This document shows positions 1 through 57,386 of a stretch of DNA of 64,000 nt, one piece after another. The DNA lies in the NCBI GenBank assembly GCA_013239625.1, contig MU053792.1:1196112-1260111 (forward strand), written 5' to 3'. Source of the stretch: Lama guanicoe. Lineage: Eukaryota. The notes beneath the pieces were generated by a model. It worked only from the letters and a program-made list of their open reading frames with translations, was not told the origin of the DNA and searched no databases. Within the stretch, counting starts at the first letter, position 1. Each line of letters begins with the position of its first letter. The position numbers and the translations under genes are program-made.

Positions 1-59
1 TGAGAAGCAGAGATTCCCGCGTGCCTGAACCCCTGTCATCCAGAGAGCAGAGGTTCCCC

Positions 60-32089: not shown

Positions 32090-33250
32090 AGCGACAACGC
32101 CTGCGGGTGCTAAGTTCTCAGAGTGACAGGAAACTCAGCTCTCCGCGGGGATAGCAGGTGTGATCCCCGTAGAGGTTCTGCAGGGGCCTAGGCTGGGGGG
32201 CTTGACCAGGGAGGTGAAATTTGAGCTGCGGGCCTTGAGAGGTTAGAGAGGGGCGCGGAGGCAGGACTGGCGCCTCCTTTGGGGTGCCCCTGAAGGTAAA
32301 GCTTTTTTCCTCTATCTCACCTACTCTCCTTCCTCCAGATCCCTCCCTACTCCCTCCTACTTCTGTCCACCTCTCTGCCTCTACTTTCCCCCCTCTTCCG
32401 CTCCCAACTTCTCCCTCCCTCGCTTCCCCAGCGTGTCTCTTCTGCGCATGCGCACGGTCAGTGCGGGCTGGACCGCGGGTCCGAAGCGCCAGCTCCGAGC
32501 CGGCATCGGCCGCAGAGGCTGCTCGGTCCGCCGCCCGCCTGGCCGTTGGCTCCTGCCCCGGGCCGGGGCCTCCGGCTGTGGAGTTGTAAGGTAGGGGGAC
32601 TCCGGCGAAGAGGGTCCGCGTATCACAGCCCGCGAGGGCGCACGTGAGCGCGCGTCCAGCTGAGGGGCTCGCGCCAGCCTCCTCTGCCCGCACCGCCTGC
32701 CCCAGCGCCCCGGCCACACCTGTCCAGGGCGCTCGCCTGCCGGGGACCGGCCACCCCCCGTTCCCGGCCCGGCCCGCAGCTGCCGCCGCGTCTCGCCCTA
32801 GCCGGGCTTCCCTCAGTCCGCGGCCGGCGTCCCCTTCCCCTCTCCCGCCCGCGAGTCCTCTCCTCCCGGGTTTCCTCTCCTCGGCCGCCGACCCGTCCCC
32901 GCCCCTGGGTCGGCTGTGTCCGGGACCGGTGGGGTCTGCGGACCCGGGCGGGGGCTGGGACTGGCCTTCGAGCGGGGCTGCAGCCCGCGCCCCCCGCCGC
33001 TTTCCCTGCCCCCCAACCCCGGGGCTGCCCTCCTCTCCCTTTCCCGCTCCTCGAGGTCCAGCTCTGCGGTGTGGGCGCTGCTCCCCGGGCTGAGAGCCTC
33101 TGGCTGTAAAGCCCAGCTTCTCCTGGCGGAGCCTTAGAAAGAGAGCGTGCATTGGTCTTCTCCCTCAGTGTTTCTGCCCCAGGTAAGTACCTTTGAACAC
33201 TTTCGGGTGTTAGGATAGGGGTGCTCGTTGATGTCACGTGTTTTTATAGC
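32090..33250 (+). promoter_or_regulatory. CpG-island promoter, probable 5' end of the TRAPPC9-derived unit
   Basis: CpG-dense. Palindromic NRF1 site TGCGCATGCGCA at 32443-32454, E-box CACGTG at 32641, GC boxes, and donors AAG|GTAGGG (32590/1) and CAG|GTAAGT (33182/3). Confidence 0.75.
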
Positions 33251-34199
33251 GAGAGGGATTACAGTGTTGAAAGCAGGGCTTGGTTCAGTTATAAATGAGC
33301 TGAAGGCGGGAGGCTGTGACATCCTCCATCCTCCCCCCCCTCCCAGGTGTAACCCGTGACCGTCGTTTTTAAAAAGATAGTTACAGTTCCTAACTAGTCC
33401 AGCCCAGCTAGTGTGTGTTAACAGGAACAGCACTACCAGGGGCATTTTGGAGACCCAGGGACATTGCAGTCCTCAAGATCTGGAAAATTTTTGTTTGGTT
33501 TTCTTTTTCTTAAATTGTGGGGCTGACTAGTAGTATAGAGGGAAAAACAGTTGTCAAGGACTATTTTTTTTTCATGTAACAGCTTTATTGTGATACTGTT
33601 CACACACCATGAAGTCCAGCCATTTAAATGGTACAATTCAGTGGCTTTTAGTATATTCACAGTGGTGTAACCGTTATTATTCCAGAATGTTTTCATTGCT
33701 TCAGAAAAACAGTGGAAATGAATGACCTATCCACTCCTCCCCAGCGGTGGTTCTAAAGAAATTTCTTGGCTGTTCCTGACCATAAGTTAATTTGTTACAT
33801 TCCGTGAAAAATCTGGTAGGAATTCTAATCAGAATTGCATTGAATCTATATCAGAATGGGGAGAATTAATGTTTTTATGACATTAACTTTTTCTACCCAT
33901 GAATATATCTGGGACCCTATCTTCATCTCTCTCGAGTCTGGCCGATGGGAGGTGCGCAGTAATTGTTGGGTCTGTGAATGATGAGATTATATATATGGTT
34001 AGTTGCAACTGTAGCCTTTCACAAAAGAGGAAAAACCTCAGTGAAGCTACGTGACTCCTCGATGGTCAGAGTGACAGCCAATGCTGGAGTGATCCAGTGG
34101 ACTTGGTGCTTGTAACCAGAGTTCTCTGCCACCTACAGCTAATGGGATTACAATGTTCTTTATTTTTTTTTTATGGCGTTGCTTTTACTTACTTTTAAA

Positions 34200-34490
34200 A
34201 TTCTTATTTTTGATTGAAGTGTAGTCAGTTTACAATGTTAGTTTCAGGTGTACAGCAGCGATTCAGTTACATATATGCTTATGTACATATATATATTTCA
34301 GGCTGTTTTTATTACATTTCATTATAAGAAATTGAATATAGTTCCGTGTGCTACACAGCAGGCCCTTGTTTATTTATTTTATATATATTAATGTGTATGT
34401 GTTAATCTCAAACTCCTAATCTGTCCCTGCCCCCTTTCCTGCCTGCTAACCACAGTTTGCTTTCTATGTCCATGAGTCTGTTTCTACAAG
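34200..34490 (-). mobile_element. L1 3' UTR fragment
   Basis: ttgaagtgtagtcagtttacaatgttagtttcaggtgtacagc...ttgaatatagttcc. Confidence 0.8.
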
Positions 34491-36699
34491 CGCCGTCTTT
34501 GCTAGTAATACATGCTGGTTGGCTGCTTTCAGTTTCAGTAATTCCATCTTATCTGTGGGCGTTTTTCTCCTGGTGGGCCTGCATGTGGTTTGCACACGTG
34601 GTAATAGAGATCTGTATTTGGGAGAACTCCGGGCCTCTTGTAGTGCCTGGCACGCAGCGCCCGCTGAGCTCATGCTTGAACTGGGAAAAACCATAGTAAA
34701 GGTTGGAATTTGCACTATGGTTCAGACTAGTGGGTTTCTGTAACTTATGTTTAGCCCACCTTAATGTTGGCTGCACCCATACTAGGTAATTTGGTGGAAC
34801 TGCATGGTGTGGCGATGTAGAGACAGGGCCTTGTCTGCTTCTTCTTCCTTTTTTCTAACACTCATTCTCCTGGGCCTCCCAGATCCTCCCCTAGCAGTGC
34901 CCAGGGCTGGCTTGGTGCTGTGCTGAGGCAATATTTGTTATTAAGGCCCTTTCCTCATCTCTTCTGCGCTTCCATTTCCTTCTCTGCACAATGAGGGCTC
35001 AGACTAGATAAGTGCTTTTCAGTTTCTTTTAAACCCATGTCTCCTTTTGAGAAACAGAAAACCCAAATCTCTCCTCCCATCCCAACCCTTCAGATTTTGA
35101 TACGTCCTCCAAGGGGTGACATAGCTCTTTGTGGAAAGTTGATGTGATTTTGGTTCTTTCCAGGTGGTGCAGAAAAGACTCTTCAGAGATTTATTGTACG
35201 GAGGGGGCAGGAGGGGAGCAGTATGTCACACTTTCTAGTGTGAGAGCATTGAAGCAGGGGCTTAGGTTTAATTACAGCCTCTGACATGGCCTCTCTCTAA
35301 TCTTGCACAATGTGATAAACCTGTTTTCCGCAGTTTCTTCATGTGTCAACTTGGGGTGACATTATTTTAGGGTTTTTGTGAGACAATATACACATAAGCC
35401 ATTTGTGTCTCAGTAGAAACATGACCTGTTAGGGAGTCAGGGATTTTTTTTTTTTTTAAAATCTTGTCCATACATAGCACTCTGTTCTATGTGTATTTGA
35501 AGTTCCTGGAGGATGCGAATTGAGTCTAAAGTCCATCATAGGACAGGTGGCCCTGGGTCTGCGTGTCCTAGATTGCCCCCTCCTCCCCAGTCCTCCTCCT
35601 CTCAGTCCAGGATGAAGTTCCCCATTAGAAGTACACACAGGTCTTGTGGAAACAGCTTTTAATTTTATTTAACTGGGGAGGGCTGCTGTCATGATTTCCG
35701 TGGTCAGGTTTTGGTAACATGAAGGCTATGCAGTTGGGGGTTCCTATTTAAGAAAAAGAAAACAAAATTATAAATACAAAATTAGACCTGGGCTGTGGCA
35801 GGGGCTCTTGGAAGTGGGGACCATTAACTTTGTTAGCTTCAGGTGCAGTGGCCTCTGGCCACGAGGACCCATCCTCGTGCTCTGAAGTTGGAGGGACCAG
35901 TGGGTTCACTGGGAATGTTTACTGAGTGTGTCTCATGGGGTGGGCGTTGTCCTGTTTGCACTGTGTGTTCCTTATTTGAGACAGTGAGCTCATTTAATCT
36001 CAACAGCCTCTTTAAAAAATTAGACTTTTTATTTTGAGATACAGTGTAGATTCCCATGCAGTTGTAAGTGGTAATAGGGAGAGAGCTTATGGACTCTTTG
36101 CCCGATTTTCTTTAATGATACCATCTTGCAAAGTTGTGCTACAATTCATTATTAACTCACTAACCTTTTGAGGTTTGTGTTATTACCCTCATTTCTGTTC
36201 ATGATTAAACGGGGGCTTAGAGAAGCACACAGGCCTGCCCAGGTCACCAACATGGTTAGTGCAGAGTCAAGGGTGGAACGTGGGCTTGGGATTTCCAGGC
36301 AGTACCATTATGATGGTCTGAGGCAGGGAGCAGCATTCACTTTGCTTGTTTATTCATTCATTCAACAAACATTTATTGAGTAACCTCCGTGGGTCAGATG
36401 CTTTCATAGGGTTATCTAATTCTTCAGCAGTACTGGGAATCAGGTAATGTTTTCTTTTTTTTATCTGAGAAAATTAGCTCTGAGAGGTTATAAAACCCCC
36501 CAAAGGAAACACAACTCATAAAAGAGGGATAGTAAATGTGTACAGTTCCCCCTTTTTATGCAGGTGGTACTGTAGGCATTTTGCATTTGCAAACTTCCTT
36601 AATCCAGATATATTCTTTTAAGGGAAGTTTTTTTTTAATTGAAGTATAGTCAAGTTTACAGTTGGTCAATTGCAAGGTGGTTTTTTTAATTTTGAATTT

Positions 36700-36849
36700 T
36701 TTAAAAAAATTATTTTTTGACGAGGAGGTAATAAGGCTTATTTGTTTATTTATTTCACTTTTTTTTTTTAATAAAGGCACTGGGGATTGAACCCAGGACC
36801 TCGTGCATGCCAAGCGTGTGCTCTACCACTGAACTGTACCCTCCTCCCC
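36700..36849 (-). mobile_element. tRNA-derived SINE (camelid Vic-1-like)
   Basis: ctggggattgaacccaggacctcgtgcatgccaagcgtgtgctctaccactgaact is an antisense tRNA-like head with A and B boxes, plus a T-rich tail. Confidence 0.85.
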
Positions 36850-37078
36850 AAGGCATGTTTTCTTATCGCCATTATTTTGCAGCTTAGGAGCTCAAGTAGA
36901 TTGGAGTTCAAATCCAGATCTTCTGATCCCACTGTGGTTCTTTTCAGTATATTCTGCTGAGGGGTGGGGAAGCAGTTCCTTTGTTTATTCCTTTATTCAG
37001 CATTTTTGAGCACTGACTTTGCATCAGGGCCTGGCTAGGTGTTGGAAACAGAAAACAAGAAATGACCCTTTTCTGCAG

Positions 37079-37463
37079 CGGATGGAAGCCTAGACCAAGA
37101 GCTACCTCAAGGTCTTGGGGCTTGCGTCACCAACACTGACTGCTTCTTGGCCAAGAACTGGCCGCAGACCTTTGAGAAGCTCTATGTGCAGAGGAGCTGT
37201 GTGACACCATGCTCTATGACTTTCAGCTCTTTGTCTTTGGGCTTCATGGGGAGGTGGCTGAGCAGCTGCGCACCAACATGGCCTTCAAACTACGAGGACT
37301 GCGGGACGGTGGAGAAGAGGGTCGAGGACTTCACTGAGTCACTCTTCATTGTGCTCGAGTTCAAGTGCCTGGATGGGGCCACCAACAAGTCTGGGGACAA
37401 GATCTGCCTCCTCTGCATCCCATTTAAGAAGGAGGACTTGGTGGGACTGGACACAGACAGCAG
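37079..37463 (+). pseudogene. TRAPPC9: TRAPPC9 first coding exon (exon 2) remnant, 5' part lost
   Basis: Frame-corrected: KVLGL/[111 protein letters not shown]. Recalled human: [119 protein letters not shown]. Homology starts at about 37103, and the donor is CAG|GTAAGT. Confidence 0.95.
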
Positions 37464-37699
37464 GTAAGTATCTGGAGGCCCGGCCACCCTGGCTGTGTGC
37501 CAGGTTGCTTACCTACGTCCAGAAAGGGATCGGCAAGAAGGGGGGCTGTCTTGTAGCCAAGGGGGGAGGGAGGTGCAGCCCGCCGGTTTTCAGACGTTTA
37601 AAAATGAACCCGCCTTTGATTCAGAGAGATCCTTTTAGGGTTAGTGTGGACACTTAACTCCCCCTTTTCATCTAGGACCCCTGGTGGGACCCCTGGAGT

Positions 37700-38005
37700 T
37701 GCTGTCCAATAGAGTAGCTACAGCCACTGATGCTGGGAGCGCTGGGGAGGAGGCTGGTCTGAGCTGAGATGTGCTATAGGTCAAATGCACATCAGACCCT
37801 GAGACTTGTCTAGAAAAAAAAATATAAACTATCTTGTTACTTTCTATATTGATTACATGTCAGAATGATAGTACTTTACATACAGTAGATAAGTAGGATT
37901 TGTTCTTAAAATCATTTTCAAATGTTTGGGTTTTTTTACCTTTTTAAATGTGGCAACTGGAAAACTTTCTTTGCGTGGCTCGCGTTTCATTCCTGTTGGA
38001 CAGCC
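37700..38005. mobile_element. MER33-like hAT-Charlie MITE
   Basis: Inverted termini gctgtccaatag / ctgttggacagc, with internal tatattgattacatgt. Confidence 0.8.
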
Positions 38006-38629
38006 TGTCCTGGGGCAGTCTCGTCCCTTTGATGTATAGGTGAGGCACTGAATCCTGAGAGCTGGGGGTGGAGCCTGTGTCTCCTCTCCTGCCTCCCAGG
38101 CCCCTCTTCCCTCTAAAATACAGGATGAGGGAGAACTGGTTGAGCTGCTTGCAGTGGGGAGTCTTCTCAGGTGACTCCCTCACCCTGATTCCTGCCACTC
38201 TCCCCCACAGCCCTGCATGGCAGTCCTGCCGAAGCAAGCATGCACTTTGCTCAGAAACGTGCTGAATTTCCTTGTGCCTCCGTTTGTTGGCTTTTTTTTA
38301 AAAGCACATCTTGCCCTTTGCTTAAATGCCATCCCTGCTAGTCACCTCTTACACTCATTCTTCCAGACCTTGTCCATATGTTGCTGCTGAGTGGATGAAC
38401 AGAATATAGTATCTCCATGTAGTGGAGTATTACTCAGACATAAGAATGAATGAAAAAGAAAAAAATGTAAGGGGAAAATGAGAAAGGCCACTTGCTCTGG
38501 GAAGTCCACCCTGACTGCTCAACCCACCCTTTTCCTTAGGAAACCCCACCCCTTGTACTCTTCTCTATTTGATAGTACTTACCACCTTCTACTAAACTAT
38601 AACCTTTAAAAAAAAAAGAGATGCTAATA

Positions 38630-38966
38630 CCCCTTCAACATGGAGGAGCCTTTTTAACAGCATGTTAAATAAAAGGAACCAGACACAAAAGGCCACATAT
38701 TGTTGATTGCAGTGATCTGAAATGCCCAGAATAGGCACATGCAGAGGCAGAGAGCAGGTGATGGTTGCGAGGGGCTGGCTGGAGGGGGAATGAGGAGTGA
38801 CTGCTTATGGACAAGGGGTTTCTTTTGGGGTGATGGAGTGAGTGTTCTAGAAGTAGGTGGTGGTTAGGGCCGCACAACCGAGTATACAGAAAGCTGCTGA
38901 ATCGTACCCCTTTAAGCAGGTGAGTTTTATGGTATGTGAATTATATCTCAATTGAAAAAAAAAAAC
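38630..38966 (+). mobile_element. L1MB-like 3' UTR
   Basis: aaccagacacaaaaggccacatattgt...tttatggtatgtgaattatatctcaat followed by an A tail. Confidence 0.85.
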
Positions 38967-39599
38967 CCTCAGTCAAAGGACAGCCTCTCCTGGGTCTGTC
39001 AGAGTCTCCCTCTGTGCTGGAGCTGCCTGTGACATGATTTTCTCCTGCAGGGACTGTCTCTTGGAGGTGGGAGCAGGAGGCATGGTCTATGTGTCTCCAT
39101 CATCTGGGATGTTGTAGATGTTCCCTAAATGCTTGTTAATAAATGCTGTGGGAGTAAGGACTAAAATAGGGCCCTTTCCTGGAAGAAGCTGACAGCTCAG
39201 AGAGCCTGCCAGCCACTTAACGATAAATACGGGTCAGAATGAAGTAATGAAGTTTTAACAACACGCTGCAGTACACACTAAGTAGAAGAGATTCTTGAAT
39301 GGACTTAAATTTCCTAATCTGGCTTCTTAAAAGAGGAGAGAGAAATAAAAGTGGGAAAGAGAAGAAATCAATGCAAGAGAAAAGAGAAAACAGGTAAAAA
39401 AAAAAAATTAAGCCAGATGAGAAAGGGAAATGATGGGAGCTTGAGTTCATTGTATTGAAAGAGAAGTCTGTAAATTCTTGTGACTGATGGGTGGAGGGTA
39501 GCTGTGAGATGGGGCACTTCTCCAGGATGAGAACCCACCCGGGCCCCTGACCCACATGGTGGTGATGGGCCTGCAGAGGACGGTGCCCTGTGCTCTTGG

Positions 39600-40100
39600 C
39601 GTCTCACCTTCAGTCCATCGGAAATGCACAGTGGAGCTTCCCGGGGGCTCCACGACGTGTGACACCACAACAGACGGAGCGCAGAAGCGGCCTTGGGGAC
39701 GTGGCTCACTTGTTTTGAGCCAGACAGGAAGGAAATTTGTAGAACTGTAAAACGATGCCACTCTTCTGGCATTTTGTTTTGGAAAATAGTTATCCTTTCT
39801 AAAAGTTTAACATGTAATGGGCTTACTATTATTTTAATAGGAATGAATACATACATTTTAAAATCCTTCTCTGTTTTTCTTTTTCTTTTTTTAATGGAGG
39901 TACTGGGATTGAACCCAGGACCTCTTGCATGCTAAGCATGCGCTCTATCCCTGAGCCATTACCCTCTCCCTTAGTTTTATTTTTGAATATAGTAAGTATC
40001 TGTAGGTGTAACCTGCACACACACACAAAAGCACTCTTTGAGATCCTCAGTGATTTCTGAGTGTCAGAGAGTTCTAAGACCAAAAAGTTGGAGGCCCGTG
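39600..40100. mobile_element. hAT-Charlie DNA transposon fragment interrupted by a SINE
   Basis: cacagtggagcttcc...tgtaaaacgatgccactcttct, and ctaagaccaaaaagttggag near the end. Confidence 0.6.
39875..39970 (-). mobile_element. tRNA-derived SINE (Vic-1-like)
   Basis: ggaggtactgggattgaacccaggacctcttgcatgctaagcatgcgctctatccctgagc. Confidence 0.85.
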
Positions 40101-40713: not shown

Positions 40714-40843
40714 CTGCCCCTGAGAGGTTGCGTTTGGCCTCTGTCATCTGTCAACTATCCTGCTGGGACTGGTGGCCAAGCTGGAGCTCGGAGGTTACAG
40801 GGCAGCTCACTTCCTGCTGAGTTAGCCAACAGACATCGCCCAG
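40714..40843 (+). pseudogene. TRAPPC9: TRAPPC9 exon 4 remnant
   Basis: Flanked by cag| and |gtaagc. YPAGTGGQAGARRLQGSSLPAELANRHRP versus recalled [29 protein letters not shown], with a +1 frameshift near 40755. Confidence 0.93.
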
Positions 40844-43004
40844 GTAAGCTCTGCCTGTGCCTCTGTCGTGGGCTTGTTGGCAGTCCTTCAGCAAGCAGGG
40901 GCAATTTATTACTGTCCCCCCTGAGTTAAGTTTGACTAATGTTTAAATAAAGTATAAAATCAGTTGGGTCAAGAATCCTACATGAGACATGTTCTTCTGA
41001 TTTTACTGATATGCATTGATTTTATTGAGTCTTATTGAATGATATTAATGGATTAGAATGATTGGTTCATTTGTGGGACAGGTGCGTAGCATTTCATGGT
41101 AGACCGACCTTGACGTTCTGGGTCCTTTTCATAATTCCTGTGTATTTGGTGAAGTTAATCCCAGACGTCAGTTTTAACAGCTAATTCAGGGCCTGGGGGC
41201 TGTTTCTTTTTTTTCTGGTTAACGAAGTTCTCTTACTGAGTGAAGTTAGATTTAGTTATGTTCGTTACCAGCTGCAGAGAGTAAAAATCTTTGGAGGAGC
41301 TGACCCACAAGTGATCGCTGAATAACTTTGACTCTTTGGGCCCCTAATGAATGAAGTCGCCTTAAATGGTTTAGGACGTAGCTGTCATACCACACAGGTC
41401 GCAAAGGTAATAACAGAATGCGGAGATCCAGGCAGGACACAGGGCTGCCAGGTGTTGTTTGATACATGAGGTTTTTTTTTTTTTTTTTAATAGATTTTTC
41501 CCTCCAAAGAGAAAGCCTATGGTAGTAGATGTGTATTAGATGAGGAAATGCCTTAAATTTCCTTTTCCCTGATTTATACCATCCCCCACCATCAACAAGT
41601 TGTGCAGAGACCACTTTTATAAACCATCAGGGCAGCCGCGCGGTCAGAACCTGAGTGCACTCTTTGTAGATCTGCTTAGATGAATCTGATGGTTCTTGAA
41701 GACAGTTCATCATTCTTCCTCAGACCGTTCTAGTGTTTTCAGTGGGGTCTTGGCTACTGGAGAGGGAAGTAAAGCAGGCTGAGAAGTGATAGAGGAAATC
41801 AGGTCTAGAATGTCTCTGCTCCCCCTTCCCTGGGCTTGATTCTGACCTGAGGTCCCTCCTGTCAGTGTTTATCCCTTGTTGTCGTCCCTGCTGTCCTTGG
41901 AGGAGGTTCTAGCTTTCTAAGTCCTGCGGTCCTCTGCTCTCTCTGGGAGTGCCTGTTGTTGGGGGCGGCTTTATTTTCTTCTCATCCTGCAATGTGAAGA
42001 GTCATCATGTGCTGAGGTCATTCTACTCCTGTGAGTGGTGAGGCTCAGAGACTGCAGAGTCATGTTTCTTTTTTCCCCCTTGCTGAGTGTAGGCAAAAAC
42101 GGTCTACACCTGAGAAAGTGCTCCATCTGCAGAAATGTCTTTCAGTTTTGCAGAGTGTAAAAACCTTGAGGGCTTTTTAATCGTTGAGGGCAGTCTGGGG
42201 GGGGAACAGCCCGCGAAGCCTGGGTGAGACCGGGAAGAGCCGTGCCTCCCTCCCAGACATGGGTGGGGATTTCACCACCGTTCAGGCAGTGAAGGGCCCA
42301 GACCCGTGAGCGGAGTTGACAATCGTGAATATTTATGTGTATCTGCTGCTTCATCTTGGATATTAATTTCAAGCTGAGTCAGTTTGTGGCGGCAGCCTCA
42401 TCCTACAACAGGAATTTATAGTATCTGCTCTTTGAGGTGAAGACCTGACAGACTTGATTATTTAACAGTCTATCTTGAATTGATATCTCAGATTCCTTTG
42501 TCAATAGCAAAACAGCAGAAATACAGACATCCTTTAATGCCGATGTGACCTGCAGCAGGTTTAGTCTCTGTGCCTCAGTGGCCTTATCTGCGTGAGGAGA
42601 AGATGATAACAGTGCTTCTCTCAGATAGTGAGGGGGGAAGTGAGAAACACAAATGGAGGGCTCACATGAGATGCTCATGAATGACCGAATTTAGTGCTCT
42701 CCGCCTGGTGAGGCCTCAGGGGCAGAGATGTCAGAACAGAGCAGTCGTAGCCGGAGCTCGATCCGTGATGGCAGCTGTTATGATCAGTATCACCACTGTG
42801 GGTTATCAGGTAGTTTTAAGACTTGGTAATATGAACTCATGAATAATGTTAAAAGACTAGACATCTCAGATCCGGTTTACATAGTTCTCAAGATTTCCTT
42901 TGAGAAAAGGATGTTTTTTTCCCCAACTTAAATCTGAGTTGAGTCTGCAAAAGAATTCGGTAGTCCTCCATCTTTGTGCTTTAATTCTCCATTTCTTCAA
43001 AAAA

Positions 43005-43093
43005 AAGTTTTTAAATGGAGGTACTGGGGACTGAACTGAGGGCCTCATGCATGCTAAGCACGTGCTCTCCCAACTGAGGTGTAATCTCCCCCC
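43005..43093 (-). mobile_element. tRNA-derived SINE (Vic-1-like)
   Basis: ggaggtactggggactgaactgagggcctcatgcatgctaagcacgtgctct. Confidence 0.8.
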
Positions 43094-45014
43094 TAATCTT
43101 TCTTAACTTTACTTTCTTAGTATTCAGAGGTTAGAGGCCTCTTACTCTTTTTCTGGAGACTTGTCCATGAACCTGGAAGTCTATAATTAATCGACAAAAC
43201 TTGGTTTATTAAAACAGTCAATAGAACATTCTGCAGTCCATGCAAAGGAAATGCTCATTGACTTAAAATATTTCTCCTTTATGGTGATTTGTACTTTTTG
43301 GTCTAGCTTAATTTATTAACAGCCATCCTCATCATCATAATGACTAAGTTTGCTCTGAGTGAGTGGGAAGCTACCAAAGGCTAAAATGCTTTCCTTATGT
43401 TTTACTTCATAGCAGGGGTTCGAGGGTAGGTGTCAGTGTCTACTTTCTTGCAGCTGAGGGATTGAGAGATGGGGCAGCTTGTCCCAAATCACATGCAGCT
43501 GGTGGTGGCAGGCTCAGGGCTGGAGCCCAGGCTGCATAGGATGCATTCTCAATTGCTCCTCTAATCAGCTTCCCATTGAGTGGTTTCCCAAACTCCTGTG
43601 AGCCAATAAATGACTGATTTTAGTGATCTCAGCCTGATGAGGCCTTCAGAGGAGACACCAGTGAGAATGTGAGACAGAGTGGCATAAATTAAAATTGTAT
43701 ATTTTCACAAATGTTTTATTCTCAGCTAATGACTTAAAAATTAGTATTTTTTATTCTAGTGTTCTGTAAGCACTAAAAACAAAATACTAAAAATGATTAT
43801 AATACAAAACAGAAGTGGGCTTTGAAAGTCCAGCCACTGCTAATGACTCATTGCTTGTTTTTCTCTAGTGGTACTTACTGAGAGAAAAGTTTACAAAGAC
43901 TGAATTGATTTTATGTAGTCTTAGTATGGAAGAAAAGGTTGTCAGTGAATATTGAAAGTAAAATCTTTACTCTTCTTTAATGATAATGATATGTAAGTTG
44001 TTCTTCATGGCTTAAGTGCATTTTCTCATTTGTGAAATCTGAGTAATGCCGTTTACCGTCCGACTGTGAGAGTTAGATGCCTTGTATACAAAGCACCCAA
44101 GAGGTGCTCAATAAAAATGTGCTGTCACAGTGACAGTTTAGAAGGATCAACTCTGAATACTAAAGAGGGTGGCTTATTTCTGGTGCATATTCAATATGTA
44201 TATATATGAATATATGAATATATGAATATGACTTAAAGTAACAAGGATTCAGTTTTTTTAAGTGCAGTATGAAGTTTTGATGAAATCAGTGTCATTCTAG
44301 TAACATAGGGACTAGTTAAATTGCCTTAAGCAGACGACCTTGAAGATTATTTACACAGAATGTGTATTTTTACAATGTGTGTTTTGCCATGTAACTATTC
44401 TAGATTAAATTCATAGGAATCTGACCAGAACCATTAAGTTTAGAAAAATCAACATTGATTCTTTTCAGGGAATAAGCTTATCTCTTTTGTGATTGAAGAA
44501 AATTTTGATTTTTTTCTGCATTCTTAATATGTTTTAAAATATCAAAACATTGATTTGATATGTCACTTTTTAAATAGAATAAAGCTCATGCTGTTCTAAT
44601 ATGTAAATAAATGTTTTTGCATTTCAACAAAATTGTATGATTTCCTGACTCTTTGGGAAGTATTTTGGAAGACACTTAGATTACCTACTGTTGGAAAAAT
44701 GCAGAAGTGACTTCTATGAATATAGGCCTAGTACAGATCTGTTGGTTTTTGACAGAGTGCAAGACATGAGGACTAGGAGAGCTTTGCTGCTGATTGCCAG
44801 GACAGATCCCGGGTCTCAGTCTCCCCTCCTATAAAGTGAAGAGGCTGGACTGGATTCTTTCCTCTTCTAAGATGAGTTTCCAGGAGCCTTTGTCTTTTGT
44901 TTATATTCAGGAGTATTAACAATTTCAAATTAAATACTGAATACCACTCTCTTCCCCGAAGCAGAATTCAGTATGTGATAGATAAGCTTTCAGTTATCTG
45001 ATTCTTGTTTCTTT

Positions 45015-45640
45015 CTTTTTAAAATTTTATTGAATTACAGTTACTTTACAATGTTGTGTGAATATCCAGTGTAGAGCAAAATTTTTTAGTTATACATGAA
45101 CATACATAGATTCATTGTTGCATTCTTTTTCACCATGAGCTACCAGAAGATCTTGTATCTATTTCCCTGTGCTATACAGTATAATCTTGTTTATCTATTC
45201 CATATATACCTGTCAGTATCTACAAATTTCGAACTCCCCATCTGTCCCTTTCCACCTGCTGTCCCCCCTGGCAACCACAGGTTTGTATTCTATGTCTGTG
45301 TGTTTCTGTTTGTATTTATGTTCATTTGTCCTTTTCTTTTTTAAATGCCACATATGAGTGATCTCATGGTATTTTTCTTTCTCTTTCTGGGTTACTCCAC
45401 TTAGAATGACATTCTCCAGGAGCATCCATGTTGCTGCAAATGGCGTTATGTTGTCGGTTTTTATGGCTGAGTAGTATTCCATTGTATAAATATACCACTT
45501 CTTTATCCAGTCACCTGTTGATGGACATTTAGGCTGTTCCCATGTCTTGGCTATTGTAAATAATGCTGCTATGAACATTGGGGTGCAGGTGTCATCCTGA
45601 AGTAGGGTTCCTTCTGGACATAAGCCCAAGAGCAGGATTC
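45015..45640 (-). mobile_element. Young L1 3' fragment (same family as 59064-60367)
   Basis: ORF 45213..45629(-) [31 protein letters not shown] is the L1 ORF2 C-terminus. High similarity to 59080-59680. Confidence 0.95.
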
Positions 45641-47099: not shown

Positions 47100-47295
47100 T
47101 TTCTGAGCGTTTGTATTACAGAAACGAATCCTTCACTCTTCAGAACAAGTGAGTAAGGAAGGTTTGATTGTTATCCCAGGTTTACAGATGTAGGAATTGA
47201 GGCACAGAGGGTAAGTAAGTTGGCCAAGGTCACAGAGCTAGTAAGTGGCAGAGCTGGGATTTAAACCCTGGCTGTCTGGTTTTCAGGTTCCCAGA
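47100..47295 (-). mobile_element. MIR SINE (one of many MIR fragments in the window)
   Basis: tttacagatgtaggaattgaggcacagagggtaagtaagttggccaaggtcacagagctagtaagtggcagagctgggattt. Confidence 0.85.
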
Positions 47296-48724: not shown

Positions 48725-48819
48725 CTTATTTTTATTTATTTTTTTGGAGGTACTGGGGATTGAAGCCAGGACCTTGTGCATGCTAAGCAGCTGTTCTACC
48801 ACTGAGCTATACCCTCTCC
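48725..48819 (-). mobile_element. tRNA-derived SINE (Vic-1-like)
   Basis: ggaggtactggggattgaagccaggaccttgtgcatgctaagc...ctaccactgagctataccct. Confidence 0.85.
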
Positions 48820-49699
48820 TTGTCTGCACTTAGAAGTGGACATTGCAATACACAAAATAGCTCTTAAGCACCATCATGGGACCTAGTCTTGTATAGACAA
48901 TTGAACACGTATGCTACTTCAGTAAGAATAAATGTTGTTGGGACATATCATTCTGAATCTGTTAACGTGTTTAAAAATGATCGTAGCTAGTGATAAACAC
49001 GAGTCTTGGGTCCAGTACTTCTTAGGGTCTGTTTGGCCATCATGGGAAATTACATTCTACAGAGAAGGCTAATTGGGTCTCTTGATTTTGGATGGTTCAG
49101 CAGATGATCAAGGCTTTTAAAAGCTCCTTGATAATAATGAAGTTGACTGTTTCATATTTTAAACTAACTACCAAGTTATCTTCCAAAAGTTGGAAGTCGT
49201 TAGCTTGTGAAGTGCCCAGTAATTCAGTGTGTCTGTGTGTCTATGTCTGTGAACGTGTGTGTGTGTGTGATTTCAGGAAGGTGGAAATAAGTTCCACGTA
49301 GCCTCCTGGTACCTTTCTCCTCCAGTTCAGGGTGTAGGCATATATTTACATGAATAAATTGATATTCTTTTGTCATTTAGCGTATTGGTGGGAATAAGAG
49401 GCTCTCATACTTATTTCAGAAGTGTTGGCGAGCATGAGCTTAGAAAGTGGGAGGGGAAAGGCAGGGAGGCACTTCACACTTTGTGCAGGATGTGAGAAAC
49501 AGTAGCTTTTCTTTTCTCTTTCCTTCTAAAGCAAACTGGCACTGAATTGTAACATACTATTTACTCAGAATTGCTTTTCTGATCAGATACAAGTGCCTCA
49601 GATTTTCAAGGCAACGTGAATGATGAAATGTGTTTTAGCAGTTATCTTCAAAAGTAGTTTTATTTTTCAAGTAAATGACTGGCCTGTTCTTTCTTCCAG

Positions 49700-49726
49700 C
49701 GGTACAAGAAGTTCTCATTGATCCAG
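49700..49726 (+). pseudogene. TRAPPC9: TRAPPC9 27-nt microexon (exon 5)
   Basis: ttctttcttccag|cggtacaagaagttctcattgatccag|gtacgt encodes (A)VQEVLIDP(G) versus recalled (G)AQEVLIDP(G). Confidence 0.92.
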
Positions 49727-51779
49727 GTACGTGATCTATGTGTTTAGTTTCTTTGGGTTATTTTTTAAGTGCTTGTATCATTGTGGTTTGAATGAATGTT
49801 TAAAATTTCTGGATTTTGATGTTTAGAACATGCTGATTTATCAGAACTGTTAAAAACCTGATTGTTGTTTGGTCCTTGTTTGGTGGGGCACCCTATTGAT
49901 TTATGTTGTCTGTTAAAGAGGGAAATTCTTCCTCTAGCCTGCGGATCATTAAGTGAATGGTTTGCAGTGTGCCTTTAAAATTCTTGAATGCATTTAGCAT
50001 GCTTGTCCAGTAAATTTTGAGTTGACTCATAGTAATGACTTTGCTCTGATTCCATGGCTTTTGCTCCTCTCCACGTGAATTTGAATTCTCTGTTGCATTT
50101 CGTATACGTGTTCTTAATGGGGGAAGAAATTTTGCTTTTTTAAGAGAGGTGGGTTTTCTTATGCCCTCTGAATGCCTTCTGTAATTAATACAGCAAAAAT
50201 CTCTTATTGCAGTGCTTAATTATCTCATAATGAGCTCTGTTACTTTTTGGCTTAATCAGAAATGACAAAGAGTGATAATAAAATACAAAAACCTTCCTTC
50301 CTTTGAAGAATAGAAATCAGGTGGTCAGGCTCATGCATGCTTTGTGCCTGACACACTTACTTTCATGTCATTGTGTATCATGATTCTGAGACAGAGTTGC
50401 TTCAGGTTTGTAGATTTTTGTTTTAACATTTGTGTTGAATTCTTTCTCTAGGTTGATGTTTCCTGTTGGGTTTGTGGAAAGTGTAGAGGAAGGGAAACAA
50501 ATGCTTTGTTTTGTTTTCTGGAGGCCTGAGTTGCTGATGAGAAAAGAGTTGAGCATGAGCTGAGGAACAGAGTGACACTCCCTCTCCTCCTGGCTGAAAT
50601 TGATGAACAACGAAATCAATTAAGTGTATTGGTATTTGACCAATAGAAGTCAGAGAGCCCAGACTGGCTAGTTATGCCCAATGGAAAGTACTGAATTCAC
50701 CTGCAGGAGAATTAGGTGCTTTACCAAGTAGAAGCAGCTTAGAGCAATCAGAAAAATCAGTCCTGTGATGAGATATAAAAAGAATATAGTATCTTTTATT
50801 TCTGAAACGTTCCTACGTTAGGTTGTGTAGAGCTAAAATTAAGTTTCAAGAACCAGGAGTTAAAGAGTGTGGGTGGTTCTGTGGGATCGTTACTCAGGGA
50901 GGTGTCTAGACCCTGCTGGAGGGGTTGAAGCTGGCAGGAAAGGACCCAGAGCCAGGGTTTGTCATCCCAGGGTGTCCTCCATAATGGTTCCAGCTGAGAA
51001 GGATGCAGGCTTGATCTCTCCTACCTGAGGGAGAGCGAGGGGAGAATTGAGATCTGCTCCCCCGTGGTCCCTTCCTTCCCCAGGGCCACTCCAGTTCACC
51101 TGCAGCCTTCTGGCCTCTGCTCACAGGGCCTCTGTCCTGGGACTGACTGCAGCCTTTTCTTCCCTTGTCAACATTTCCTGTGCCTTTCAGAAGTTGGTGT
51201 CTTCTCTGCAATTCAACCCTGGCAGATGGTGATGGTGGTCAGTGTGCTGGTGGGCAGTCAGCTGGGGACTCCCAGGAGCCATGCTGATTCTCCTGAGTCT
51301 CTCATTTGGGGTTATAGAACTGCCGAGCACCAGAGGAAGCCCGTTCATGTGAGGTCAGCACAGCATCGCATCACTTTCATTTTATTTTTGAATTTTCAGT
51401 GGAGGAATTATTTGTAGCAAACTGTTCCAGATTTTCTGCCGCCTGATTTCCTTACCACTGTCTCCTTGTTGGCTCCGGTGCTTGTTTTAAGAACCAGGTT
51501 TCTTCTCTGGTCATTTCTAGCAGCTGGGCTTGCCCAATCCTTGATCTGCATTTGAAGCAATGCTTTTCTTTTTCGTGATGTCCAACTGGTTTTCCTTGTC
51601 GTTTCTGAGTATTTCGTGTACACTCGGCAACTGTTTCAAGTGAAATGCCCTTGTCCAGTTTCAGTTAACTCACATTTGCTGATCTGCTGCTTTCATGCTG
51701 AGGGCAGTTTCTTCTTCCTGTAATAAAAGTTAGCAATTAGCATTTACTATGGGAAGGTACTGGCCCGAGGTGCTTTTGT

Positions 51780-52822
51780 TCTTAACAGTTTTAATGCAAT
51801 TAACCCATTAAAATGTACAGCGGTTTTTACTCTATGCCCAGAATTGTGCATCCCCATCAATCTTAGCACATTTTCATCCCCTCAACAGGAAGCCCCGTAC
51901 CCATAAGCAGTCATTCCCATCTTCCCCATCCTCCCCCAGCCCCAGGCAGCCACTCTTCTCTCTCTCAGGATTTGCCTGTGCTGGACATTTCATGTAAATC
52001 AAGTCATTTCATGTAAATGGAACCGTCTATTGTGACTGACTGCTTTCATACTGAGTAACATTTTCAAGGTTTGTCCACGTTGTGGCCTGGGTCAGTACTC
52101 TATGCTTTGCTATTGCTGAATAATATTCCACTGTATGGCTGGGCCCCAGTGTTTACCCATTCATCAGGTGATAGACATTTGGGTTGTTTCTGCTTTTTGG
52201 CTGTGATGACTAATGGCGCCGTGAACATTCCTGTAGGAGTTTTTACGTGGACATATGTTTTCAGTTCTCTTACGTGTGTGCCCAGGAAGCAGAATTGCTG
52301 GGTCATTCAGAAACCAAATGTTCAACTCTCTGAGGACCCACCAGGTTGTTTTCCAAAGTGGCCACGCTGTGTTACATCCTCACCAGCAAGGGCTGTGAGC
52401 TCCGCTTCCTGTGTGTCCTCATTAGTGCTTGTTACTGTTTTTTTTGTATTATAACCTATTGTAGTGAGTGTAAAGCGGTTTCTCCTTGTGGTTTTGATTT
52501 GATTTCCCTTACAGCTAATGACACCATGCATCTTTTCCTTGTGCTTATTGGCCATTAGTTTATTTTACTTGAAAAACATCTTTTCAGATCCTTTATTCAT
52601 TTTTTAATTGAGTTGTGTTTTTATTTTTGAGTTGTAGGAGTTTTTTTTTTTTTTATCTTGGAGATACAAATTCCTTATGAGATAAATGCTTTGAAAAAAT
52701 TTTCTCCTGTGTATTTTTTCACTTTCTGGTTGGTGTCCTTTGAAGCAAAGTTTTAAATTTTGATGAACTCCAGTTTATCTCTGTTTTCTTTGTTCTTTGT
52801 GCTTTTGGGGTCATATCTAAGA
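51780..52822 (-). mobile_element. Old L1 (L1MB-like) 3' portion
   Basis: Minus-strand ORFs 52100..52306 and 52322..52555 resemble the L1 ORF2 C-terminus. cccagcccaggcagccact is a 3' UTR motif. Confidence 0.9.
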
Positions 52823-55800
52823 CCTGAGATATTTTATATAAACTTTCTATATAAAATAACTGAATTCTTAGGACTGTTCTAGGAGACGGGTGCTGCTGTT
52901 GTCCCCAGTCTATGGATGAGGAGGCTGAGATGCAGAAAAGCTCACTGACTTCTCAGGGGCACAGCTACTTGGTGGTGCTGTGAGAGTTCAGGCCCACAGG
53001 TTTGTCCCCAGCATCTGTGCTTGTCACCACCACACTCTACTCCTTCCCGGGGTTATTAATGAAAAAGCCTTTACTTTTTTGATTTCTTGTTAGTTTTTTT
53101 CTCATTGGGGATCTCATCTCCTCATTGTCCTTGCAGAACGCAGTGTAGGTTTATTTTAGGTCTCATGTAGGCAGAAGCACTGCTGTCAGTTTAACTTCTG
53201 TATTACTCACTCTCCAGTGATGGTTGTTACTAATTGACCTAATCAAGTCATGCTTAACTCTTCCCTGCTCATGACACTAAAAACAGAGTCATGACTTACA
53301 GAATGCTCAAAGAAGAAATTGATTTTATTTTGCTAACCAATCAAATAAAAACCCCAGTGTTGACACAGATTATAAGCCCTCCAGAATAGGGTCACTGTCT
53401 TCCTTGTGTTTCATTTGTTTGGTCACAGTGTCTGGATAGTGCCTTGCTGTCCAGCAGTTTAGTTAGAATACGGTGCTCGTGAATCATTGTAAGAACAGAA
53501 TTTTGGCAACAGACTCTGTTGTTCATTTCACAAGGGGAAAGATAATATAGAAATCCTGCTCAGATCTATTTTAGAATTAAGCTTGGGATTTTGAGAGTTC
53601 AAGAAACCATACAAAGATACTTTCACTAATTTTAGATCTGAGACACATTATGGTTACATACCATATCTTACCAACTTACCAACTTATCAACTAGATATGA
53701 CAAGAGAAGTGTATTGATTATTTGTTTTTGTTAAAATATTCTACCTGGGATAAAGTAATCAGGGCCTATAAATGAACAAAATATAAGTTTGTATTTCTTT
53801 GCAACATGGGAGCAGACTTCATGTATTTATATATTACATATGTGTGTGTGATTTGATCTGTTTTTCAGAGTGTTTTTATAGTTTTTCAGCAGTGTTCTAA
53901 CTTTAGAATTCTTTTAAAAAATCACCCCTGTGTCTAGTGCAGTTTGCACTGTGTATCCTGCCTTATGCATGGGATCCCACTGTCCCCTCAGTGAGGAATC
54001 TCCTCTCTTACTGAGTTAGTAGCAGAGCTACAGGGACTGGGGTTTCTAGTCCTTTGCTGTCCATGTGTTTGAAGTTGACTGTCAATCACGATTTTCCCTT
54101 TCTTGGATTTTCATTGTTCAATTAGAGTTTTTGAAAATAACTATTAATATGTTGCACTAGCCTCCCTAGAAACTTGATGTGTTTGTGCTTTTCAGTTTTC
54201 ATTGTATGGAAAATGTAAATGCACTCGTGTTTTTAAGTAGTCCTTTTTCACTAGGCATTTGTTTACCTCTTTATAGTTAAAAATTTTTTTTCCAATGAAT
54301 GCATCAGTGTGCATGTTTTAAAAGATACCTTACCTTTTATTTTTCTTATTGTAAAAGTTATATTCATTGTGGAGAATTTAGGAAATAAGGATAAACACAA
54401 TAAATAAGTTAAAAATGACCTGTAATCTCCTCACCTAGAGATACAGTTGTTAGGTTTGAAATTGAGAATTCCAAGTCCTCTCACGTTGTTCTTCTTTTTC
54501 AAGTACGTTTTGGTTACTGAGACCCTCGAATTCCCATATGAATTGTAGCAGCAGCTAGTCAGTTACTGCAGAGGAGCCCGCTGGGATTGTGATCGAGAGA
54601 CCACGTTGAATGCACGGATCACTCTGGGGAGCACTGACATCCCAAGAGCACTGTCTTCTGATCCAGGAACGTGCGTGGTGTGTCTGTCCAGGTATTTAGA
54701 TCTTTAATTGTTTCAACAATGCTTTTAGTTTACAGAGTATTATTTTACACTTTTTTTGCCTTTATACTGAGGACAAGTGTGCAAGGTACTGGGGTCAGAA
54801 GTTACTTGTATTTGAGCCCCGCTACTTGCTGCCACCATGGTCGCTGTGCTCTTGCTTTGCCCTCTGTACAATCTTGCACAAAATAGGACCTCAGTAACTC
54901 TCTCGAATGAATGGTTATATGATTGTTGGATGGTGCTTGAGAGCCCTTGCAATGATGTCTTTTTTCCAGCCTTTCCCCACTTCTTCTTAACTATGCCCTT
55001 TCTCTTCCTTTCCTCCAGCCTGGGTTTCAGCCTGCCTGTGGCGTTGATTTTTCTTGTCTGTAGACTCTTCCTTTCACTGGTTCACGGTAATGTTACATGT
55101 GGGCTGTGGAAACTTGCTAGATGTCAAGAAAGAGCAAAGCCATTGCATGCTAGCATTTTTAGAGTGTGGTAATCTTTTATCGATTGAAATTAAATCAGGC
55201 TGACCCCCTGAGCCCTCCCCTGAGCTCTTTTCGCCTTCTACAGGTGATACTGCTCTGGTTGCTGCATGTGCCCTTCCCCCAGACATGGTTTTGGAGTTGA
55301 GTAAGTCACCATCAGTGGAGCCCTCTCTTTAAAAGATGGAGAGAACATTTGCTCCTTCTCCCTGGTTGGGGACTTGGATGAGATGAGGTATCAGATAAAG
55401 AATGGAGCCTCACCTCATTCTGACCGCCGGTCTTTCCGTCCCTTTCCCCAAGGGAAAAGAGTACAGTTCAACAGTATAAATACTAATTGTGAGCTAATGA
55501 GAGAAAGACAACTGACCATTTATTAAATATCCTTTCACACCAGAAACAAATGTATTAACACACATGAAAAGCACACAAAGCACGGTAGTACTGTGGTTAC
55601 AAACCTGGGTCCAAGTTCGAGTCTCGATCTGGAGTGACCAGTGCTGTGAGCTGGAGAACTAGCAGGTCTACTTAGCCTCTCCCGGACTTGTTTTCTATCC
55701 TGCAGAGACGGGCTTGCTAGGCGTCCCCCCCCCCGTAGCAGTGCTGTGGGGTGTAAATGACGCACATGGGCAGCCCGAGCACAGCTGCTCGTTCCTCGTA

Positions 55801-56721
55801 AGTGCAGGATCGCATAGCTTTTGCGGTGACGACTTTATGACCGCCCCGTGTAGACTCTCAGTGCTCCAAAGGGGTGCCTTGTGGTTTGGGGATGGGATTC
55901 TCACTTCTGTAAATACCCAAGGATTGTGTTATTGGGCCCTGCTGATTTGAATCTACTCTTTACAAAGTATATAATGTAAATTTTTTTTCAAACATGCATG
56001 CTTTTTATTATTTATAGTTCTGCCCTCTCATCTCTTGGTGTGACTTTTCATGGAATCCAGGAAACAGTCCTAAGCCACCTGCCTCTTCACACTTCTCCGT
56101 GGTGGTTTTCTACCCTGACTAGAGGAGGGTTTTGCATGGGAAATTTTCTTTGTTCCCCTTTTCTTGGAGTCACCGTCTCTCTACCCATTTCTCACCTGTC
56201 CATCTGTCCATTTATCTACCCACTCATTCTTGTGACTTGTTCCAAAAAGCATTCCAGTCAGCTTACAGAATAACAGATACCAAATAAGCAGGTGAGAAAA
56301 TGGGGTCAAGTTCAGATGGTGAGGCTAGGAGGCGAGCCTGTGTGAGGGTTGCAGGTGTGAGATAAATGCCTCTGCCCTGTGACTTACAAGATCGACAGCA
56401 AGAGTGTGCCTGAGGCTCCCAGCAGACACAGGGAAGCAGGGTTTGTGGGAGATACTCACTGGCTGTGAAATAAATAAGTGGCTTAGGAGAAGCCCAGCCT
56501 TTCCCGCTACTAAGGCTTAGGAGAAAATTTTGAGTGTCTTCCAAAATCAGAGTATTTCATCTTTTCTTTTGTCAGAGTTCTGCGTATAGTTGGTTACATT
56601 CTATACCTGGAAATTTCTCCAAAACTGCTTTCCACGTGAGTCCCATGGCTCGGGAATGGGGTGGTTCTGCTCATTGACGGGTGTTGGCCAGAAACAGAAA
56701 ATGACAGCCTCAAAGGAGCCT

Positions 56722-56905
56722 GGGATTTGTCAGTCATGTTTTGTCAGTGCTGTAGATGTCAGAAAATGCTTTCACAGTTTCTCTCCATCTGAGGCGGCAC
56801 CGTGCTCTCTTACCAAGGGATTTGTCTGTTTTGTCAGTGCTGTAGATTTCAGAAAATGCTTTCACAGTTTCTCTCCATCTGAGGCGGCACCGTGCTCTCT
56901 TACCA
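56722..56905. repeat. Tandem duplication, 90-bp period, 2 copies
   Basis: tgttttgtcagtgctgtagat[g/t]tcagaaaatgctttcacagtttctctccatctgaggcggcaccgtgctctcttacca occurs at 56737 and 56827. Confidence 0.95.
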
Positions 56906-57259
56906 GCATCAGGAGCTCAGGGCCACGGGATGGTGCGGGCTGACTGCACTGCTGTCAAGACAGCTGAGCTAGTCACTGCAGGCGTGGTGCTTTCACGTAG
57001 TGCATTTCATGTTCTTTAATAGAAAGTTTCAACCGGGAGTTAATTAACTGAGTTGATTAACATTTAATGAATATGATGCTTTGTTGAAAAGACAGTTATA
57101 GGCAGAAAATAAGCTGTGAAGACTTTAAAAACGGTTTTATTACTGAAATTTCAGTAGGGAAGATACACAGTTTATCTTATTTGTGCCTCTCTTTTAAAGT
57201 AACAAAGAAAAAGACAGAAAAAGCAGAGGATGATTTCTGTTCTTCCTCTCGGCTTGCAG

Positions 57260-57386
57260 GTGCCCCTTCATCCAGTGGCATCCATCCAGACACCAGCACT
57301 GACACTGGCCGTGCTCAGAACTAGAACTGCCTCAGCCCTGAAGACACAACTGACAAATAGAAGGGGACCATGCCCTGTGACAGCAG
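57260..57386 (+). pseudogene. TRAPPC9: TRAPPC9 exon 6 remnant
   Basis: After ttgcag| it reads GAPSSSGIHPDTSTDTGRAQN*NCLSPEDTTDK*KG versus recalled [34 protein letters not shown]. Two stops, one made by a 6-bp duplication (agaact). Weak donor gtgccc. Confidence 0.9.

What the first reader, a model, noticed from the sequence alone, without database searches (positions are those of the whole stretch)
32400..57386. Old segmental duplicate of TRAPPC9 with a ruined frame but retained splice architecture
Seen: exons 2 (part), 4, 5 and 6 are in order over 20 kb with frameshifts, stops and many substitutions. Three canonical donors (GTAAGT, GTAAGC, GTACGT) and the acceptors remain. The start codon region and exon 3 (HYKKRCQGRMRK...) were not found by eye. 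Known: TRAPPC9 is a conserved gene neighbouring CHRAC1/AGO2 and an imprinted domain, and pseudogene-derived lncRNAs and piRNAs can regulate parent genes. Inference: an old duplicate repurposed as a non-coding transcription unit.
Basis: partly seen in the sequence, partly recalled or inferred. Interest (0 to 1): 0.75.

Follow-up and report, generated by a model that had tools for sequence, protein, structure and literature searches.

The report
Camelid TRAPPC9 front-end pseudogene copy
This is a broken, intron-containing copy of the front end of the trafficking gene TRAPPC9, one of many such copies in camel and alpaca genomes, and it keeps no more splice sites than chance decay would leave, so it is likely an ordinary relic rather than a repurposed regulatory RNA gene.

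Summary
The relic is real. TRAPPC9 exons 2 (3' part), 4, 5 and 6 lie in order on the + strand, with four frameshifts and two stops aligned. The upstream CpG island is TRAPPC9's own promoter.

It is not a lone duplicate. Fifteen named Camelus and Vicugna models and further unnamed ones are decayed copies of the same piece. They share its frameshifts and its intron and flank DNA. The scan reported this family before on other camelid DNA.

'Retained splice architecture' is overstated. Three of ten native sites of exons 2-6 are deleted. At the measured decay (24 of 209 fixed non-CpG positions changed), the other seven stay intact by chance with P about 0.18. A spliced RNA could encode at most 85 aa and would be predicted to undergo nonsense-mediated decay.

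The promoter island is still CpG-rich, so transcription is plausible, but I obtained no read-level evidence. I did not retrieve an intact camelid TRAPPC9. Five paper searches found no description of this family.

Verdict: most likely a neutrally decaying member of a camelid amplified pseudogene family. Interest is low.

The parts
27357..27422 (+). Upstream flank DNA shared with another family copy, so the duplicated unit reaches at least 5 kb upstream of the promoter
   Evidence: tblastn of P0398, 68% over 25 aa, E 4e-6
31290..31803 (+). LTR-like element just upstream of the promoter, sense to the relic; 85% identical to an inverted copy at 30125-30651
   Evidence: self-blastn; TATA-like motif at 31641; the LTR label is from sequence style (recalled)
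32211..32241 (+). 3' end of TRAPPC9's upstream alternative first exon, with a GT donor at 32242
   Evidence: 9 of 9 consecutive residues identical to human and chimpanzee isoforms P0195 and P0202; E 0.013-0.043 on its own; donor context
32400..33200 (+). TRAPPC9 promoter CpG island with the second first exon (donor 32591), an NRF1-type motif at 32444 and a further donor at 33183
   Evidence: GC 73%, CpG o/e 0.81; match to sheep P0150 N-terminal extension, E 8e-4; paralogue models P0388 and P0400 break at the 32591 position (read by eye); P0392 and P0398 matches end at 33182
37079..37463 (+). Exon 2 remnant (homology from about 37097, parent aa 72-195) behind a possible cryptic acceptor at 37079; three frameshifts; donor GTAAGT at 37464
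   Evidence: 86 of 124 aligned columns identical to porpoise P0002; use of the cryptic acceptor is untested
40714..40843 (+). Exon 4, 130 nt (parent 129 plus a 1-nt insertion), AG/GTAAGC
   Evidence: 33 of 44 columns identical
49700..49726 (+). Exon 5, 27 nt, AG/GTACGT
   Evidence: 7 of 7 residues identical
51229..56995 (+). Intron 5 stretches whose homologues are predicted as cryptic exons in gene models of other copies (51229-51348, 54499-54555, 56016-56144, 56891-56995)
   Evidence: tblastn 74-91% identity to P0375, P0384, P0392, P0124, P0133, P0381, P0094, P0401, P0402
57260..57386 (+). Exon 6, 127 nt, with a 6-nt duplication, stops at 57322 and 57358 and a weak donor GTGCCC
   Evidence: 20 of 33 columns identical
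63680..64000 (-). LTR-like element in intron 6, antisense to the relic; a possible but untested source of antisense RNA
   Evidence: 70-83% identical to the LTR copies at 17.6, 30.1 and 31.3 kb; TATA-like motif at 63857 and AATAAA at 63771 on the - strand

Best explanation
The stretch is a non-coding, intron-containing copy of the promoter and first exons of TRAPPC9 that belongs to a multi-copy family in camel and alpaca genomes and is likely decaying neutrally. Shown: order, introns, promoter island, lesions, and shared lesions and intron DNA with other camelid copies. Inferred history: (1) the 5' part of TRAPPC9 was duplicated at DNA level early in the camel lineage; (2) it was frameshifted in exon 2 (-1 near codon 104, shared by both sub-lineages); (3) it was then recopied many times, partly head-to-tail; (4) this copy belongs to the sub-lineage with a second, compensating -5 deletion and likely branched early, as it keeps four codons that four other members of that sub-lineage lost; (5) it then lost its start codon, exon 2 acceptor and exon 3 by deletion. 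The inherited CpG island likely stays unmethylated in the germ line and may fire, giving spliced RNA as a by-product that would be degraded by nonsense-mediated decay.
For: Decay: 24 of 209 non-CpG positions fixed by the protein are changed (11.5%, 95% CI 7.5-16.6%), 39 of 321 overall. Four frameshifts and two stops in the aligned exons. Family: 15 named short TRAPPC9-like models, all Camelus or Vicugna. Seven C. dromedarius models with KAB accessions lie on six scaffolds of 82 kb to 121 Mb (one assembly is inferred from the accession series). Shared lesions: P0001, P0094, P0121 and P0128 read the same shifted frame as the window; P0001 and P0094 have the same net -6 length; P0126 of the other sub-lineage reads across the -1 site without a gap. 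15 of 76 representative hits also match window intron or flank DNA between 27.4 and 57.7 kb (13; P0390 and P0395). Head-to-tail units: P0094, P0385 and P0401 run from one copy into the start of exon 2 of the next. Splice sites: P(14 of 14 GT/AG bases intact) = 0.18 (0.08-0.34) under the measured decay. Longest ATG frame in four hypothetical spliced forms: 85 aa, stopping 147 nt before the last junction. PMC13751797 reports multi-copy fragmentary pseudogene blocks of other genes in alpaca and ascribes them to genomic context rather than selection.
Against: The promoter island keeps CpG o/e 0.81 while exons 2, 4 and 6 are at 0.10-0.31, so the promoter region has been protected from methylation decay. 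All seven surviving native splice sites and both first-exon donors are intact (P 0.11, range 0.04-0.25, for 18 bases), which leans weakly towards constraint. RefSeq and other models show that sister copies are predicted as spliced transcripts; their RNA support is not visible here. No full-length camelid TRAPPC9 appeared in the rows shown (120 of 302, 120 of 704, at most 15 members per cluster), so the intact parent rests on recall and earlier scan notes. The 50-column tree does not resolve the window's place; sub-lineage assignment rests on shared indels read from gene models. No preceding unit's exons lie in the 32 kb upstream, so this copy is not inside a tight tandem array.
Confidence: 0.8

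Rival explanations
1. The copy was repurposed as a selected long non-coding RNA or piRNA source, driven by the inherited CpG promoter (sense) or by the antisense LTR-like element at 63.7 kb, and regulates TRAPPC9 or the other copies.
For: CpG island retained, with an NRF1-type motif at 32444. Seven of seven surviving native sites and both first-exon donors intact. A second perfect donor at 33183 matches an exon end in paralogue models. Antisense LTR-like element with TATA-like and AATAAA motifs.
Against: Splice-site survival is not beyond chance and three native sites are deleted. The GC-rich part of the PAWR retrocopy in the same window also keeps its CpGs (o/e 0.74), though that copy looks younger. 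Sense RNA cannot guide against the parent. A-MYB-type motifs occur 71 times across the window, so the few near the island are unremarkable. Rfam finds only three tRNA-derived SINEs. The abstract of PMC6461890 says reversed pseudogenes in primate piRNA clusters generally show no sign of selection.
Confidence: 0.12
2. The copy, or the family, makes a short new protein from the compensated exon 2 frame.
For: A 133-codon stop-free frame covers 37066-37464. Two frameshifts compensate in this sub-lineage. Many gene models exist for sister copies.
Against: This copy lacks the start codon region and has a private +2 insertion. Exon 2 splices out of frame to exon 4. The shared block is only 60-78% identical to sister copies (42% for P0128, which shifts frame) and 80% to the parent, where mammalian orthologues are 94-96% identical. 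No Pfam match.
Confidence: 0.03
3. This is the only TRAPPC9 locus (gene loss) or an assembly artefact.
For: No whole genome is held for the window, and no full-length camelid TRAPPC9 was displayed in my searches.
Against: Many divergent copies exist in four camelid species and share specific lesions with the window, which sequencing error cannot produce. An intact camelid TRAPPC9 is recalled from public annotation and named in earlier scan notes.
Confidence: 0.03

Closest known systems
TRAPPC9 (NIBP, TRAPPII subunit; Pfam PF08626 on the orthologues), the parent gene
   Same: Promoter island, two first-exon donors, and exons 2, 4, 5, 6 in order with introns.
   Different: No start codon, exon 2 acceptor or exon 3; frameshifts and stops; nothing beyond aa 336 inside the window.
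Camelid 'TRAPPC9-like' gene models (e.g. XP_064332687.1, XP_031526896.1, XP_072811238.1, EPY73609.1, KAB1251247.1)
   Same: Same gene piece, shared exon 2 frameshift(s), and shared intron and flank DNA.
   Different: This copy keeps four codons lost in P0001, P0094, P0121 and P0128, and has its own 5' deletion, +2 insertion and exon 6 duplication. No named model exceeds 78% identity over the shared block.
Pseudogene-rich repetitive blocks of alpaca chromosomes 11, 17 and 36 (NEK10-like, ATF5, FMN2-like, ABHD17A-like copies; PMC13751797)
   Same: Fragmentary multi-copy gene pieces in repeat-rich camelid DNA, explained by segmental duplication and decay.
   Different: Those blocks were not detected in camel assemblies, while TRAPPC9 copies occur in both Camelus and Vicugna. 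The paper's main text and its one held supplement do not name TRAPPC9.
Primate core duplicons (NPIP, GOLGA8, TBC1D3 families; recalled)
   Same: A lineage-specific, promoter-bearing gene fragment copied to many chromosomes and in tandem.
   Different: Those cores carry transcribed, often open and positively selected genes (recalled). Here the frame is ruined and transcription is not shown.

Membership tests
Unprocessed (duplicated) pseudogene | Homology to a functional gene with introns and exon order kept | tested here: met
Unprocessed (duplicated) pseudogene | Disabling lesions in the coding sequence | tested here: met
   start codon region and exon 3 absent; four frameshifts and two stops in the aligned exons
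Unprocessed (duplicated) pseudogene | An intact parent gene elsewhere in the same genome | tested here: inconclusive
   no genome held; no full-length camelid row displayed; recalled from public annotation and earlier scan notes
Camelid TRAPPC9 5' duplicate family | Shared derived lesions and shared non-coding DNA with other copies | tested here: met
Segmental duplication in the strict sense (at least 1 kb, at least 90% DNA identity) | DNA identity of 90% or more to another locus | not testable with these tools
   only proteins of other copies were available; intron stretches match at 60-91% amino-acid identity
Functional pseudogene-derived lncRNA | Splice sites or exons under purifying selection | tested here: not met
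   P 0.18 for survival by chance; three native sites deleted. The test has low power.
Functional pseudogene-derived lncRNA | Spliced transcript from this locus | tested here: inconclusive
piRNA cluster carrying an antisense pseudogene | Dense 26-31 nt testis small RNAs antisense to the parent mRNA | not testable with these tools
   no small-RNA data examined; the copy is sense to its own promoter
Core duplicon | Transcribed core shared by all copies and seeding interspersed duplications | tested here: inconclusive
   promoter and exon 2 recur in paralogue models on several scaffolds; breakpoints and expression not tested

The most novel reading that the evidence does not exclude
The TRAPPC9 promoter plus exon 2 is a camelid core duplicon whose active CpG island drove its spread over many chromosomes. 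This early-branching copy still makes a spliced germ-line RNA, and the antisense LTR-like element in intron 6 supplies antisense RNA or piRNAs that tune TRAPPC9 or silence the whole family.
Probability: 0.07. Interest if true: 0.55.

Novelty: new member of a known kind. Interest (0 to 1): 0.17.

Why it matters
As a single locus it is an ordinary dead duplicate. The family matters in two practical ways. It misleads annotation and GWAS gene assignment in camels and alpacas: a dromedary study lists 'TRAPPC9, POFUT2' for SNPs at Chr14:31.08 Mb (PMC10357240), which is likely a family copy. It is also an old, promoter-bearing duplicon shared by Camelus and Vicugna that my five paper searches did not find described. 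If the copies proved to be a transcribed core duplicon or piRNA source, they would be a non-primate parallel to primate core duplicons.

Tried and rejected
Pfam on the exon 2 frame and on family models gave no match, so Pfam is insensitive here. The negative flank scan (229 stop-free ORFs; two sub-threshold chance hits) therefore does not exclude CHRAC1, AGO2, KCNK9 or POFUT2 relics. It covered ORFs of at least 50-60 aa in 1-6.3, 7.2-12.1, 14.9-32.3 and 57.3-64 kb only.

PDB search with the exon 2 frame found nothing. Searches for exon 3, aa 1-75, the native exon 2 acceptor side and aa 337 onward gave only chance-level hits.

A 50-column tree of 21 rows (P0127 and P0132 left out) did not place the window.

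Run search: 7 RNA and 4 possibly-RNA runs hold small shares (0.06-0.20).

Searches for a full-length camelid TRAPPC9 showed none among the rows displayed. A loose residue pattern flagged 38 of 76 representative hits as family-like, but it likely includes false positives, so I count only the 15 that match window non-coding DNA.

The bacterial promoter scan is irrelevant to a mammal. The ESM Atlas and PDB gave nothing for the N-terminal part of the PAWR retrocopy.

Paper searches without a description of the family: TRAPPC9 + pseudogene + piRNA cluster, 0 papers; TRAPPC9 + camel + duplication, 2 unrelated; TRAPPC9 + Camelus, 4; TRAPPC9 + alpaca, 0; TRAPPC9 + pseudogene + copies, 12 unrelated by title. 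A camel testis piRNA search gave 1 unrelated paper.
Full report
Observation. The window is mammalian DNA of camelid type: its best protein relatives are Camelus and Vicugna models, and the intron SINEs are tRNA-derived (camelid attribution recalled). tblastn of horse, pig and bear TRAPPC9 finds three + strand hits in order at 37126-37464, 40753-40845 and 57259-57363. They score 124, 58 and 42 bits against at most 27.3 in 20 shuffles. A frameshift-aware alignment to porpoise TRAPPC9 gives exon 2 from about aa 72 (86 of 124 columns identical; +2, -1 and -5 indels), exon 4 (33 of 44; +1), exon 5 (7 of 7) and exon 6 (20 of 33; a 6-nt duplication). Exon 6 has stops at 57322 and 57358. Exons 4, 5 and 6 measure 130, 27 and 127 nt between AG and GT. 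Codons 1 to about 71, exon 3 and everything after aa 336 have no match above chance in the window. The copy may continue past the window end: only 6.6 kb follow exon 6, and sister models include exon 7 sequence (P0383, P0390).

Promoter. Nine consecutive residues at 32211-32237 equal the end of the upstream first exon of human and chimpanzee isoforms, followed by GT at 32242. Positions 32448-32564 match the N-terminal extension of a sheep model. Each match is weak alone (E 0.013-0.043 and 8e-4), but both lie where expected. Sister models also break at the positions of the 32591 and 33183 donors. The island is therefore TRAPPC9's own promoter, copied with the gene. It keeps CpG o/e 0.81, against 0.10-0.31 in exons 2, 4 and 6 and 0.39 for the window. 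This suggests germ-line hypomethylation, which does not by itself show function. The GC-rich part of a PAWR retrocopy in the same window keeps o/e 0.74, although that copy looks younger.

Family. Homologue searches returned 15 named short TRAPPC9-like models, all from C. dromedarius, C. bactrianus, C. ferus or V. pacos. Seven dromedary KAB models lie on six scaffolds. They form two sub-lineages, each present in Camelus and in Vicugna, so the spread predates that split (more than 11 million years by the abstract of PMC13751797). P0001, P0094, P0121 and P0128 read the same shifted frame in exon 2 as the window; P0001 and P0094 have the same net -6 length. P0126 of the other sub-lineage reads across the -1 site without a gap. 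The family therefore descends from an already frameshifted copy (inferred from gene models, not DNA). The window keeps four codons that the four models of its sub-lineage lost, so it likely branched early; a 50-column tree does not resolve this. Of 76 representative hits, 15 also match window intron or flank DNA from 27.4 to 57.7 kb. One includes a SINE with its flank (P0398 at 39905-40009). P0094, P0385 and P0401 run from one unit into exon 2 of the next, showing head-to-tail units elsewhere. No TRAPPC9 coding exon lies in the 32 kb upstream here. These models come from several assemblies, so they are not a copy number. Earlier scan notes give about 85 to several hundred copies per genome; I could not test that.

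Splice architecture. Of the ten native sites of exons 2-6, three are deleted. At positions fixed by residues invariant in porpoise, pig, horse and bear, 24 of 209 non-CpG positions are changed (11.5%, CI 7.5-16.6%; Jukes-Cantor 0.125). The chance that all 14 GT/AG bases of the other seven sites survive is 0.18 (0.08-0.34), or 0.11 (0.04-0.25) with the two first-exon donors added. In P0001 the exon 2 donor must read GC (deduced from its read-through translation). The data are thus compatible with neutral decay, with low power and a slight lean towards retention. Four hypothetical spliced forms give at most an 85-aa ATG frame that stops 147 nt before the last junction, a predicted nonsense-mediated decay target (established rule, recalled).

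Expression. No read-level evidence was obtained. Four runs of unstated kind from one study hold 32-39% of the sampled words, mild support that the DNA is not an artefact. Whether this copy is transcribed, in which tissue and on which strand remains open.

Parent gene. No full-length camelid TRAPPC9 was displayed in the rows shown (120 of 302, 120 of 704, at most 15 members per cluster). Its presence is recalled from public annotation and named in earlier scan notes for other camelid genomes. Gene loss is unlikely but was not excluded by my own calls.

Literature. PMC13751797 (abstract, passages, first part of Results, one held supplement) describes pseudogene-rich multi-copy blocks in alpaca and favours genomic context over selection. 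It does not name TRAPPC9 in the text I could search; its supplementary figures are not held and might. PMC6461890 (abstract only) reports little selection on pseudogenes in primate piRNA clusters. PMC10357240 (three passages) assigns Chr14 SNPs to 'TRAPPC9, POFUT2'. Five searches naming TRAPPC9 found no account of the family; the library lacks most subscription journals.

Verdict. A real unprocessed pseudogene and a member of an old camelid amplified family that this scan has already reported several times on other DNA. Neutral decay is the best reading (0.8). A selected regulatory RNA is possible but unsupported (0.12). Interest 0.17; new member of a known kind.

Noticed in passing
window 6450-7700 (+): Intronless, broken PAWR (Par-4) retrocopy: two C-terminal pieces match PDB 5fiy (E 8.5e-13 and 3.1e-5). 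Its GC-rich 5' part keeps CpG o/e 0.74.
   Followed up: partly
window 12278-14952: GC-rich tandem array, period 85 bp, about 33 copies, 74% matches, with higher-order periods of 326 and 411 bp and CpG o/e 1.0. The alpaca satellites tabulated in PMC13751797 have monomers of 2.3-8.5 kb; no sequence comparison was made.
   Followed up: partly
window 20950-22600: Decayed GC-rich repeat with about 74% identical internal copies. By eye a short stretch resembles the N-terminus of family model P0390, which would extend the shared unit to about 21 kb; not significant in tblastn.
   Followed up: partly
window 17650-17945, 30125-30651, 31290-31803, 63680-64000: Four copies of one LTR-like family, 70-85% identical; the pair at 30.1 and 31.3 kb is inverted and sits just upstream of the promoter.
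   Followed up: partly
window 54650-54690: A short stretch resembling the end of exon 5 and its donor flank, but without the GT.
   Followed up: no
window 36750-36848, 39877-39970, 43008-43091, 48726-48819: Four tRNA-derived SINEs, about 78-85% identical to each other. The one at 39.9 kb is shared with its flank by family model P0398.
   Followed up: partly
PMC10357240, Table 2: A dromedary GWAS names TRAPPC9 and POFUT2 for SNPs at Chr14:31.08 Mb. The two genes are unlinked in other mammals (recalled), so this is likely a pseudogene copy taken for the gene.
   Followed up: no
window 1-790, 45002-45640, 59062-60507: LINE-1 3' fragments (L1 label recalled).
   Followed up: no
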